From Carcharhinus amblyrhynchos (lineage: Eukaryota): DNA of 64,000 bases. A program made the position numbers. Position 1 is the first letter of the stretch. Each line of letters starts with the position of its first letter. The DNA lies in the NCBI GenBank assembly GCA_965287045.1, contig OZ336872.1:137268001-137332000 (forward strand), written 5' to 3'. This document shows positions 10,055 to 13,000 of the stretch, piece by piece.

Positions 10055-13000
10055 CACATATCCCTCACCCGCCACTCACACGCTCACACATATCCCTCAC
10101 CTGCCACACACACACCCCCCTCACACTCCCTCACCNNNNNNNNNNNNNNNNNNNNNNNNNNNNNNNNNNNNNNNNNNNNNNNNNNNNNNNNNNNNNNNNN
10201 NNNNNNNNNNNNNNNNNNNNNNNNNNNNNNNNNNNNNNNNNNNNNNNNNNNNNNNNNNNNNNNNNNNNNNNNNNNNNNNNNNNNNNNNNNNNNNNNNNNN
10301 NNNNNNNACCCCCACCACACACACAAACACACACACACACACTCCCCTCACCACACACACACACACACACACCCACACCCACACCCCCCACACTCTCACG
10401 CACACAATCGTGTTCTCCTACCATTAATCACCTTATATTTCAATCGCACTGCCACCAATCAGAAAGCAAACTGACTCTTGTTTATACCAAAAAAATGTTT
10501 AATTTTATTAATTCCCCTTTTGCCCCGGCAGTTAGTCTTCAATGTTTGGAGCTGCTGGGCTTTATCCTGGTGGGTGCGCGGAGGATGAAGTTTTATCAGT
10601 GGGTGGAGTTGTTGATCTGAATTTAGAGAATGTGTAGCCAGGGTCCGTGCCAGGCCCAGGAATCTGAGCTGGACAGGACTGGGCGAGGGGTCTGGTCCAG
10701 AGCGGCCATCATCTGATTGGATGGTAGGATAGAGTGGAGGAGCTGAATCGCTCATTGACCCTCTGTTGACCCTGATGTCACGAGCAGCAGCGAGCAGCTC
10801 CCAACCCAAACAGGCCAATATGGAGCCTCTGTGAGTGATAGTCATCCCAAATCTGTGATGGGGGCCATTTCATCGGATGAGTTGCTGGACCCACCAATTT
10901 CCAGAATGACCCTGGGGTCACCAACCTATCAGTATGGTGGCTACAATTCTTGAAAGTGTCACGACTGAGATTGATTTATAGATTTTTGTTACACAAGTGC
11001 ATTTAGAACTCTAAAACCTAAATGGAATTGAGATACAGTTGTCATGCTGTAATGGCATAGTAGAACAGGTTTAAGGGGCTGAATGGCCTCCTGTTGCTTC
11101 TATGTTAGGAGGGAAGGAATTCTTATTTACAATTTGAAACCTCTGGTTTAGCAATGTGTCCCCATCACAGGCGATGTTTTTGGTGTCAGCCATGTCTGAC
11201 CAGTGTGAAGAATGTTCTAACGTTACTCTGGGTTTTTATCCCGGGTAGGTGGAAGTTATTTTGAACAAATAATTCTGTCATCCAAACCCAGGTACAGAAG
11301 CGATCGCTCAGTAATTCTCCTCGACGCCCACCCAAACAGGGAACACATTCCACTAAGTGGCCATCGTCCAATGATATCTCCGACCAACACCCTGCTCAGC
11401 AACCAGCACGCCGCCAGCAGAAACTTCATCCCGGTTTCCTTCCCTCCGCCCCGGTCAACAGACGAGGCTCACACCAAGCTGTGGCATTGCAGGACTCCAG
11501 TGTCCACACCCAGGCAGAAGGCGGGCAGAAGACGCATGCCCCCCTGGAGGACCAGTCCAGGCAGGCACGATCACGGGGACGGTTAATGGCCAAACAGCGG
11601 CTGCCACAGGATTTGACCTTTGGGTTTGGACCTAATGGAGTGGTGAAAAAGAATGTAAAGAGCTCCGTTGCGAATCCTCCAGCGCGCTCAGATGAATACA
11701 TCTTTACCTTTAGTGAAAGTGGGGTTATTAAGAAAAGGATTAAAGCTGCAAAACCCCTAGCTAACAGATTCACAGCGAAGCCGGATGGGGTGGTAGCCAG
11801 GGTTCCAAACGCTCCCAGAATCAGAGTGGATCCTGATTTTGATCTTGAAGATAAATGGTGCAATGAGGGAGAGGCAAGATCACTTTCTGCTGATGTCTCT
11901 CTCTCTCCAACATCTCCTCGTAGCCTATCTCCAGAGTTTCCTGAGGACTATCTATCACGTTCCTCCCCAGCTTCATTTCTTTCAGGCACGCAGCAATTTC
12001 TAGCTCACAGAGTGAATTCTGCTGAGGGCAACTTCTGTCTAAAGGTCCCTGCGGCCGCGCACTTCCTGTCTTTAAAAAAGATGGCCAGCGCTCCCGATCT
12101 TTCTGACTTCGGCTCCTCCTCTTCCGTTGTTCCTGATTCTCGCAACCTCAGTCGCTCAAATTCTGCTGACCTGCATTCCGTACGCAAGCCCCTCTGTGGC
12201 TCTCCCATTCCTGGAAGCTTCCCGTATGACGATGCTTTCTTCAGTAGCTCTCCCTGCCGTTCCCTAGAGTCTTCCCATTCCTGCAGCTTTCCCAACCATT
12301 ACAACACACTCATGGCTTCTGCCGTTCACTCTTCCTTGGAGCAATTGCCCCTCACACCTCCACGTGTAATGTTGGATGGCTCCACTCTATGTCCAGCACC
12401 CAAAGAACACGCGGAAGAAATGCGGAACGTTCCAGTATTAAGATTGGAAATTGAATCAGACGATTCCTCAGAGAGGAGAAAATATAACCCATATCCCCAT
12501 AACCCAATGAATGGTGACTGCTGGACCAGGCCTCTATCTCCAGATAGCCCTGACATTTCCATTTTCTCTCAGTCTTGTCCAGTGAGTAGTTTCCATCAGT
12601 TCCCCCTTCCTGGATCTCCCAGAAGCAGCCGTTCGGCTTCTGAAAACAGTGGCGTCAAACTCCCAACTCGATGCCACCGGCAGTCTCCTGAACACAGGAG
12701 CTTTAAATAGTCTTTAACTCCATACGCCTTTTGGCTGTTTGAATAAGCAGACATTGCTGGTCCCTCACTCATATCCGTGAATGTCTCCAAAATGGTTTCA
12801 GCACCGTTCCATTGATAATGTGCCTTGTTGTGCTCAAAGGCCAATTCTTCTGAGCTTTGCCCTTATTTCATGTTTCTCCTGGTTTGACTGTTGGTACTGA
12901 CACTTACAGCTTCCTCAACAACCTCTCCCATCTGGGTGTCTGCTCTCTTTCTGATTGCTCTGATGTTAGTCCTTGGTGAGCTCCTACTTTGGCCAGAGAG

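What the first reader, a model, noticed from the sequence alone, without database searches (positions are those of the whole stretch)
11292..12710. Hidden 1.3-1.4 kb in-frame exon in the TNIK-like kinase: giant cassette or CNH-less terminal exon
Seen: a unique (non-TE, non-tandem) frame of 472 sense codons starts right after acccag at 11292, in the phase 0 left by ...KPAWAKE|gt (8551). It opens VQKRSLSNSP, echoing the canonical next exon VEERSKLNRQSSP, which hints at origin by exon duplication. An in-frame donor CCA|gtgagt at 12581 would make a symmetric 1290-nt (430-aa) cassette rejoining exon 24397. Reading through gives a stop at 12710 and a kinase + coiled-coil + new tail isoform. Known: the CNH domain of TNIK/MINK1/MAP4K4 binds Rap2, and I recall no such exon in human TNIK. 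Inference: a lineage-restricted isoform that either adds a large disordered platform or uncouples the kinase from Rap2. Caveats: weak pyrimidine tract, and I saw no AATAAA before the SINE tail at 14332. A nested single-exon gene from ATG 11586 is an alternative.
Basis: partly seen in the sequence, partly recalled or inferred. Interest (0 to 1): 0.85.

Follow-up and report, generated by a model that had tools for sequence, protein, structure and literature searches.

The report
Shark TNIK alternative exon with long tail
The long open frame is a genuine alternative exon of a shark TNIK kinase gene, normally used as a short 121-residue insert, and its unexpectedly conserved 351-codon continuation may encode a truncated kinase form that lacks the Rap2-binding end.

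Summary
Starting from cag|G at 11292 there are 472 sense codons, then TAG at 12708-12710, in phase with the TNIK exons that end at 8551 and start at 24397. It is the longest open frame in the window and is single-copy.

Predicted TNIK(-like) isoforms of seven shark species, from both Galeomorphii and Squalomorphii, contain only residues 1-121 and then continue with VEERSKLNRQSSP. The exon supported by annotation is therefore a 363-nt cassette, 11292-11654.

The remaining 351 codons are not chance: 0 of 3000 shuffles gave a frame that long. A single unnamed 464-aa protein (P0014) aligns collinearly along the whole frame. Its identity is 32% in the tail against 30% in the cassette, and tail-only similarity beat all 1000 shuffles.

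My best reading is a dual-use exon. It serves as a cassette, or, when the weak donor is skipped, as an extended exon ending at the stop. The second form would be a disordered-tailed TNIK without the CNH domain.

- **Giant cassette (donor 12582):** not supported, because the GT is not conserved and no model uses it.
- **Exon-duplication origin and nested gene:** neither is supported.

No transcript data could be checked, and there is no canonical poly(A) signal within 2.6 kb.

The parts
8360..8551 (+). Upstream constitutive TNIK exon (end of the coiled-coil region, ...KPAWAKE), donor GAG|gtaggc, ends in phase 0
   Evidence: sequence; tblastn gives 100% identity to Mustelus asterias TNIK-like X2, residues 448-512.
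11262..11291 (+). Acceptor region. In-frame TAA at 11262-11264, a purine-interrupted weak pyrimidine tract, then cag. No ATG lies between the stop and the exon.
   Evidence: The tract is weaker than at neighbouring constitutive exons such as 24397.
11292..11654 (+). Cassette exon, 363 nt = 121 codons, phase 0 to phase 0 (VQKRSLSNSP...FGFGPNGVVKKN)
   Evidence: In 7 of 8 public shark proteins examined the homologous 118-136 residues sit between ...W A[KR]E and VE[ED]RSKLNRQSSP.
11655..11660 (+). Donor gtaaag (AAT|GTAAAG, 4 of 7 consensus positions). Read through, the same six bases encode V122 K123.
   Evidence: V-K is kept in P0014 and V in S. torazame P0003, so a GT is present in all three.
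11655..12707 (+). 351-codon extension of the frame: Ser 17.7%, Pro 11.1%, no Pfam domain, predicted disordered
   Evidence: open frame, 0 of 3000 shuffles. (collinear homology to P0014, 94 of 293 aligned positions identical; tail-only score 99 against a shuffle maximum of 87)..
11613..11837 (+). Three copies of a short motif (F-x-F-x-x-x-G-V-[VI]-K-K-x-[VI]-K and a looser third copy) at 11613-11660, 11697-11744 and 11766-11837. The first copy straddles the cassette donor.
   Evidence: copy 1 against copy 2, 0 of 2000 shuffles; in P0014, 4 of 2000. for coordinates.
12429..12455 (+). Best-conserved island of the tail (VPVLRLEIE; P-x-LRLEIE in P0014)
12582..12587 (+). It is not conserved and is used by no public model.
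   Evidence: In some searches, V431 aligns with H in P0014; 0 of 12 hits extend this far.
12708..12710 (+). In-frame stop TAG
12742..12747 (+). AATAAG, the nearest poly(A)-like hexamer after the stop. Others are AGTAAA 13355, TATAAA 13849 and 14327; the first ATTAAA is at 15335.
   Evidence: No AATAAA or ATTAAA occurs in 12701-15334.
24397..24561 (+). Next constitutive exon (VEERSKLNRQSSP...VEPQ), 55 codons, strong pyrimidine tract

Best explanation
The frame is a dual-use alternative exon in the disordered linker of a shark TNIK(-like) gene.

Mode 1 (supported by orthologous gene models): acceptor 11292 and the weak donor at 11655 are used. A 121-residue basic, Q/S/P-rich cassette is then inserted between the coiled-coil exon (...KPAWAKE) and VEERSKLNRQSSP, and the rest of the kinase is unchanged.

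Mode 2 (inferred): the weak donor is skipped. The exon reads on through 351 more codons to TAG at 12708-12710, and the transcript ends downstream. The product has the kinase domain, the coiled coil and a 472-residue disordered Ser/Pro-rich tail. It lacks the remaining linker, where TRAF2 and NCK bind, and the CNH domain, which binds Rap2 and activates JNK.

That isoform would keep kinase-dependent activities while being uncoupled from Rap2, TRAF2 and NCK inputs. The conserved short islands in the tail, including the repeated F-x-F...GVVKK motif and LRLEIE, would act as linear docking or phosphorylation motifs.
For: Shown:
- Frame, phase and splice sites.
- 12 of 12 significant hits among longer proteins are shark TNIK(-like) proteins, 11 named isoform models and one S. 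torazame hypothetical protein, matching the first 26-34% of the frame. The same 12 came back with a profile.
- In 7 of 8 of them examined residue by residue, the insert is followed directly by VE[ED]RSKLNRQSSP. The 4 left out are further S. torazame isoforms.
- The seven species include Galeomorphii and Squalomorphii.
- The flanking exons map to the window at 92-100% identity to Mustelus X2, and the cassette at 81%.

For the tail:
- 0 in-frame stops in 351 codons, against 12 and 30 in the other + frames and 18, 6 and 14 in the - frames. 0 of 3000 shuffles reach that length.
- The one hit of a full HMMER scan of 1.84 billion representatives is P0014, 464 aa, E 1.1e-4, with the match running from residue 1 to 218, across the donor.
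- MAFFT aligns the two end to end. 36 of 121 cassette positions and 94 of 293 aligned tail positions are identical, so the tail is as conserved as the accepted coding part.
- The tail-only Smith-Waterman score is 99, against shuffles at 48 +/- 8 with a maximum of 87 (0 of 1000).
- S. torazame protein P0003 reads on in the same frame for about 23 more codons, with similar conservation.
- The donor lacks G at -1 and +5 and the pyrimidine tract is weak. Both are typical of regulated sites; this is established knowledge, recalled.

Domain roles: passages of PMC13021626 and PMC8203206.
Against: - No transcript evidence of any kind was available.
- 0 of 12 public shark proteins contain the tail beyond about residue 145. 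No protein of 259-826 aa matched at all.
- No AATAAA or ATTAAA lies within 2.6 kb after the stop; only variant hexamers do.
- The tail rests on one distant homologue, P0014. It is unnamed and of unknown taxon. It is not linked to any kinase exon, and its C-terminus could be a contig edge rather than a stop (longest contig 1673 nt).
- BLASTP with composition correction aligned only the LRLEIE island (E 0.06), so part of the similarity is compositional.
- The AlphaFold run used a two-row alignment, so its low confidence (pLDDT 38) is only weak support for disorder.
Confidence: 0.55

Rival explanations
1. Only the 121-codon cassette is functional. The distal 351 codons are intron whose open frame is a relic, for example of an ancestral longer exon, preserved by the slow sequence change of sharks.
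For: All 11 named TNIK isoform models among the 12 hits stop at the 11655 donor. No canonical poly(A) signal follows the stop. No domain or fold was found. The Atlas look-alike score of 0.82 is at chance level.
Against: A relic would not stay open in two lineages that have diverged to about 31% identity. The tail is as conserved as the cassette (32% against 30%). Tail-only similarity exceeds 1000 of 1000 shuffles. The open frame is beyond 3000 of 3000 shuffles.
Confidence: 0.22
2. One reading: 11292-12581 (430 codons) spliced from CCA|GTGAGT to exon 24397, adding a large disordered platform to full-length TNIK.
For: This is the best consensus match among phase-0 GT sites in the frame (5 of 7), and its length is a multiple of three.
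Against: 0 of 12 public shark proteins use it. The GT codon (V431) is H in P0014 in both the MAFFT and the Smith-Waterman alignment. Similarity continues past it (12 of 42 aligned positions). The frame stays open 42 more codons, with a chance of 0.07-0.18.
Confidence: 0.1
3. A nested gene or internal-promoter transcript translated from ATG 11586 (or another start), independent of TNIK splicing.
For: ATG at codon 99, in a window where no other start precedes the conserved part. P0014 was called as a stand-alone ORF with its own upstream ATG.
Against: M99 is present in 2 of 10 aligned sequences (the window and Mustelus) and is P in P0014. Conservation starts exactly at the acceptor, with VQ[KR]RS in 10 of 10 sequences. 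The first 121 codons are spliced into TNIK models. In the window a TAA lies 9 codons upstream of the acceptor with no ATG between.
Confidence: 0.06
4. A transposon-derived or otherwise multi-copy ORF.
For: None found. SINE-like repeats are common elsewhere in the window.
Against: No second copy appears among the repeat families and pairs that one search printed. There is no Pfam hit. There is a single hit in 1.84 billion representatives.
Confidence: 0.02

Closest known systems
Alternatively spliced modules of the GCK-IV kinase linker (eight TNIK isoforms; modules M1-M9 of MAP4K4)
   Same: It sits in the unstructured region between the coiled coil and the CNH domain. It is frame-preserving and Ser/Pro-rich, like the phosphorylated linker. 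(Passages of PMC13021626; passages of PMC8203206.)
   Different: At 121 residues it is larger than the human TNIK modules as I recall them (29, 55 and 8 residues; recalled, not checked). It was found only in sharks plus one unnamed homologue. Its sequence matches no other linker module.
Composite terminal exons / intronic polyadenylation isoforms that truncate a multidomain protein
   Same: An internal exon whose weak donor, if skipped, leads to an in-frame extension and a stop. The result removes the C-terminal regulatory domains. (General knowledge, recalled.)
   Different: Extensions of this kind are usually short and unconserved. Here it is 351 codons and as conserved as the cassette. Poly(A) signal use was not shown. 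A search for TNIK plus 'intronic polyadenylation' found 2 papers; the one listed is not about such an isoform by its title.
NRK, the fourth GCK-IV member, whose linker exons lengthened in therian and eutherian mammals
   Same: It shows lineage-specific growth of linker exons in the same kinase family, with no transposon origin found. (Passages of PMC8857918.)
   Different: There is no sequence similarity: no NRK protein appeared in the full HMMER scan. NRK keeps its CNH domain. That paper's supplementary exon figures were not open to me.

Membership tests
Cassette exon of the TNIK linker | Lies on the gene's strand between two constitutive exons of the same gene | tested here: met
   Mustelus X2 and S. 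torazame X19 map collinearly to 8360-8554, 11289-11660, 24397-24570 and eight further exons.
Cassette exon of the TNIK linker | AG acceptor, GT donor, and a length that keeps the frame | tested here: met
   cag|G at 11292, AAT|GTAAAG at 11655, 363 nt.
Cassette exon of the TNIK linker | Included in orthologous gene products, joined to the flanking exons | tested here: met
   7 of 8 public shark proteins examined, from 7 species. These are automated predictions, and their RNA support was not visible to me.
Cassette exon of the TNIK linker | Spliced reads showing both inclusion and skipping in this species | not testable with these tools
   No read or transcript collection for sharks was available.
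Composite terminal exon giving a CNH-less isoform | Frame continues past the donor to an in-frame stop | tested here: met
Composite terminal exon giving a CNH-less isoform | The extension is conserved as coding sequence | tested here: inconclusive
   It is met against one distant, unnamed homologue and for 23 codons in S. torazame. No DNA of other sharks was available for a dN/dS test.
Composite terminal exon giving a CNH-less isoform | Poly(A) signal downstream of the stop | tested here: inconclusive
   no AATAAA or ATTAAA in 12701-15334. Variants are AATAAG 12742, AGTAAA 13355 and TATAAA 13849 and 14327.
Composite terminal exon giving a CNH-less isoform | Transcripts with 3' ends after the stop | not testable with these tools
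   No transcript data.
Giant 430-codon cassette (donor 12582) | Donor conserved in homologues, or used in a gene model | tested here: not met
   V431 aligns with H in P0014; 0 of 12 models.
Nested single-exon gene | Conserved start codon, with conservation confined to the sequence downstream of it | tested here: not met
   the Met is in 2 of 10 sequences, and the strongest conservation is at residues 1-30, upstream of it.
Transposon ORF | Multiple copies, or similarity to transposon protein families | tested here: not met
Exon born by duplication of the VEERSK exon | Sequence similarity beyond chance to the neighbouring exon | tested here: not met
   1101 of 2000 shuffles (whole exons) and 106 of 2000 (first 30 residues) reach the observed score.

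The most novel reading that the evidence does not exclude
Cartilaginous fishes, and at least one more distant lineage represented by P0014, keep an unannotated second product of TNIK. It would be a kinase plus coiled coil fused to a roughly 470-residue conserved disordered tail with its own repeated docking motif. It would lack the TRAF2/NCK-binding linker and the Rap2-binding CNH domain. This would be an ancient switch that frees the kinase from its usual regulators and was lost in, or never reported from, bony vertebrates.
Probability: 0.35. Interest if true: 0.6.

Novelty: new member of a known kind. Interest (0 to 1): 0.38.

Why it matters
TNIK is a drug target and a synaptic and Wnt-pathway kinase whose regulation runs through its linker and CNH domain. 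A conserved natural isoform that replaces both with a different tail would be a ready-made separation-of-function variant. It would also be an example of an exon serving both as a cassette and as a terminal exon.

If only the cassette is real, the finding is an ordinary lineage-specific linker module that automated annotation of other sharks already carries.

Tried and rejected
- **Pfam:** no family for the frame or for P0014.
- **PDB sequence search:** no match at E up to 1.
- **Word-indexed search among proteins of 259-826 aa:** none.
- **Profile search with P0001 + P0014 among longer proteins:** the same 12 shark proteins and nothing new, so the taxon of P0014 stays unknown.
- **ESM Atlas on the tail:** best score 0.82, a level that shuffled proteins reach a third of the time.
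- **AlphaFold2 on the two-row alignment:** mean pLDDT 38 with no secondary structure, so no fold search was worth running.
- **BLASTP of P0001 against P0014:** only the LRLEIE island aligned (E 0.06), while HMMER, MAFFT and Smith-Waterman aligned the whole length.
- **Literature:** TNIK + shark gave 31 papers, and none of the 10 listed is relevant by title. TNIK + intronic polyadenylation gave 2 papers, none relevant. TNIK + isoform + CNH domain + alternative splicing gave 6 papers; I read passages of three, and none describes this exon or a CNH-less TNIK.
- **Collections:** No orthologous shark DNA could therefore be examined.
- **Rejected ideas:** exon-duplication origin, nested gene, transposon ORF.
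Full report
**Observation**

The frame is real. Stop to stop it runs 11265-12710 on the + strand (481 codons). From the acceptor acccag|G at 11292 it has 472 sense codons and ends with TAG at 12708-12710.

The TNIK exon upstream ends ...KPAWAKE|gtaggc at 8551 in phase 0. 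The next one starts ttttag|GTG GAG GAA (VEERSKLNRQSSP) at 24397.

The frame has no in-frame stop, against 15 and 34 in the other two + frames and 21, 8 and 18 in the - frames. It is the longest frame in the window. None of 3000 dinucleotide-preserving shuffles gave a frame as long, for the whole (maximum 319 codons) or for the distal 351 codons (maximum 276). None of the repeat families and pairs printed overlaps it. The window's single N run (10136-10307) lies outside it and was left alone.

The window is shark, not human. Its exons are 92-100% identical to Mustelus asterias TNIK-like isoform X2.

**What related sequences show**

No Pfam family matches, and no protein of 259-826 aa matches.

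Among longer proteins, 12 scored E <= 0.01. All 12 are shark TNIK or TNIK-like proteins (11 named isoform models and one S. torazame hypothetical protein) from seven species:
- Mustelus asterias
- Scyliorhinus torazame
- Carcharodon carcharias
- Stegostoma tigrinum
- Chiloscyllium punctatum
- Heterodontus francisci
- Heptranchias perlo

Eleven of them cover 26% of the query and one covers 34%.

The pairwise alignments and an alignment of the inserts from 8 of the 12 show the same thing. The four left out are further S. torazame isoforms. The insert begins VQKRSLSNSP directly after ...W-A-[KR]-E. It ends ...FGP-x-G-V-V-K-K-N and is followed at once by VE[ED]RSKLNRQSSP in 7 of 8.

In window coordinates this is exon 11292-11654 (363 nt, 121 codons) with donor AAT|GTAAAG at 11655.

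Heptranchias is a squalomorph and Mustelus a galeomorph, so the cassette spans both shark clades. It evolves faster than its neighbours: 81% against 92-100% identity to Mustelus, and 50-55% identity to the orectolobiform, heterodontiform and hexanchiform sharks.

The pyrimidine tract is weak and the donor lacks G at -1 and +5. Both fit a regulated exon.

I did not build or search a joined spliced protein. The exon frame was searched alone, and the public proteins were mapped to the window exon by exon.

**The distal 351 codons**

These are the unexplained part. Three results bear on them.

1. The open frame itself is far beyond chance.

2. The eighth protein, S. torazame hypothetical protein P0003, comes from a different gene model. 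It reads on in the same frame for about 23 more codons with conservation similar to the cassette before leaving.

3. A full HMMER scan of 1.84 billion representative proteins returned one hit, P0014 (464 aa, E 1.1e-4). Its match runs from query residue 1 to 218, across the cassette donor.

P0014 is an unnamed Logan protein in a cluster of one, seen on 2 contigs, the longest 1673 nt. That rarity makes a human origin very unlikely. I did not try to trace its sample. It starts nine codons before a ...IQ|VQRRSHSNSP junction, so it includes intron-side sequence.

MAFFT aligns the two proteins end to end at 31% identity, with collinear islands:
- VQ+RS-SNSP
- SSNDI
- F-x-FGP-x-GVVKK-x-VK
- FT--P-G-V-R----P-I--D-P
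- W--E--RSL--D-S
- LSP
- SSS-VP--NLS
- SP-PG
- SPC-S
- P-LRLEIE
- I-IF-S-S-P-S----PLP

Identity is 36 of 121 in the cassette and 94 of 293 aligned positions in the tail. The tail is therefore as conserved as the part accepted as coding.

Taking only the sequence after the donor, the Smith-Waterman score is 99, against 48 +/- 8 for 1000 shuffles (maximum 87; 0 of 1000 reach it).

Against this, composition-corrected BLASTP aligned only the LRLEIE island (E 0.06), so part of the signal is Ser/Pro composition. P0014 is roughly equidistant from all sharks (35-47% in the cassette). Its taxon is unknown: a profile search found no named relative. It carries no kinase exon, and its end could be a contig edge.

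**Choosing among the readings**

*Giant cassette.* It is in 0 of 12 models. Its GT is codon V431, which is H in P0014 in two independent alignments. Similarity continues beyond it (12 of 42 positions). By contrast, the 11655 donor is V-K in both long frames and V in P0003, so a GT is kept.

*Nested gene from ATG 11586.* The Met is present only in the window and Mustelus (2 of 10 rows). The strongest conservation lies upstream of it, starting exactly at the acceptor. A TAA with no following ATG precedes the acceptor.

*Transposon.* There is no second copy among the families one search printed, no family match, and one hit in the whole library.

*Exon duplication.* The VQKRS/VEERS echo is matched or beaten by 1101 of 2000 shuffles.

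*What remains.* Either the tail is read through to the stop, as a composite terminal exon giving a CNH-less isoform, or it is a relic. Conservation favours the first. The lack of any model with the tail and the lack of AATAAA or ATTAAA for 2.6 kb weigh against it. The only hexamers there are AATAAG 12742, AGTAAA 13355 and TATAAA 13849 and 14327.

**Properties of the product**

The tail is 17.7% Ser and 11.1% Pro, with 11 S/T-P sites. It has no PDB relative. An AlphaFold run on the two-row alignment gave pLDDT 38 and no secondary structure. That is compatible with disorder but weak, given the shallow alignment. The Atlas look-alikes score at chance level.

A short motif is repeated. FGFGPNGVVKKNVKS at the end of the cassette recurs as FTFSESGVIKKRIKA (0 of 2000 shuffles) and more loosely a third time. 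P0014 shows the same repeat (4 of 2000). I could not connect this motif to any known one.

**Mechanism**

The cassette and its splice sites are shown at the level of orthologous gene models. Use of the tail is inferred.

According to passages of PMC13021626, TNIK's intermediate domain binds TRAF2 and NCK, and its GCKH/CNH region activates JNK independently of kinase activity. According to passages of PMC8203206, the CNH domain of this subfamily binds GTP-Rap2, and the linker is the site of dense alternative splicing and phosphorylation.

A read-through product would keep the kinase and coiled coil and lose those parts.

**Comparison and novelty**

The cassette is one more alternatively spliced linker module of a GCK-IV kinase. 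It is already present in automated annotation of other sharks, though I found no paper on it.

The conserved long extension is in no protein record that my searches reached except P0014. NRK shows that linker exons of this family can grow in particular lineages (passages of PMC8857918), but it is unrelated in sequence.

**Left unchecked**

- Any RNA evidence.
- Orthologous DNA of other sharks, because no eukaryotic genome collection was open.
- Proteins shorter than 259 aa.
- Supplementary files of the papers.

Noticed in passing
window 25587-25853 (+): An 89-residue TNIK exon that is present in S. torazame isoform X19 (96% identity) but absent from Mustelus isoform X2. It is a second alternative linker exon in the window.
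   Followed up: partly
window 60384-61241: A tandem array of a 33-nt unit, with inner copies 96-98% identical. It creates open frames of 230-257 codons on both strands. It lies in the intron between the exons at 58110-58286 and 62259-62330.
   Followed up: no
window 9625-10620, with N run 10136-10307: A CA/CACC-rich microsatellite block that contains the window's only gap (172 N) and gives spurious 256-331 codon frames. The gap was left untouched.
   Followed up: no
window 414-586, 27987-28159, 29884-30056, 33266-33438, 41910-42082, 50000-50172, 59365-59537, 61636-61808 and inverted partners: A dispersed repeat family of about 170-270 nt in both orientations. It carries a GGGTTCGATTCCCGG-like core, which I recall as a tRNA B-box, so these are probably tRNA-derived SINEs.
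   Followed up: no
window 32104-33264 (-): A 386-codon open frame on the minus strand. It overlaps the tandem repeats at 32268-32715 and lies opposite the TNIK exon at 32102-32290. It is probably a low-complexity artefact.
   Followed up: no
window 5672-6657: A tandem array with a period of about 71 nt upstream of the coiled-coil exon.
   Followed up: no
window 13154-13227: The first repeat-family copy downstream of the stop (family D17; other copies at 30530, 37711, 58607 and 63296). Unique sequence after the frame therefore extends only about 440 nt.
   Followed up: no
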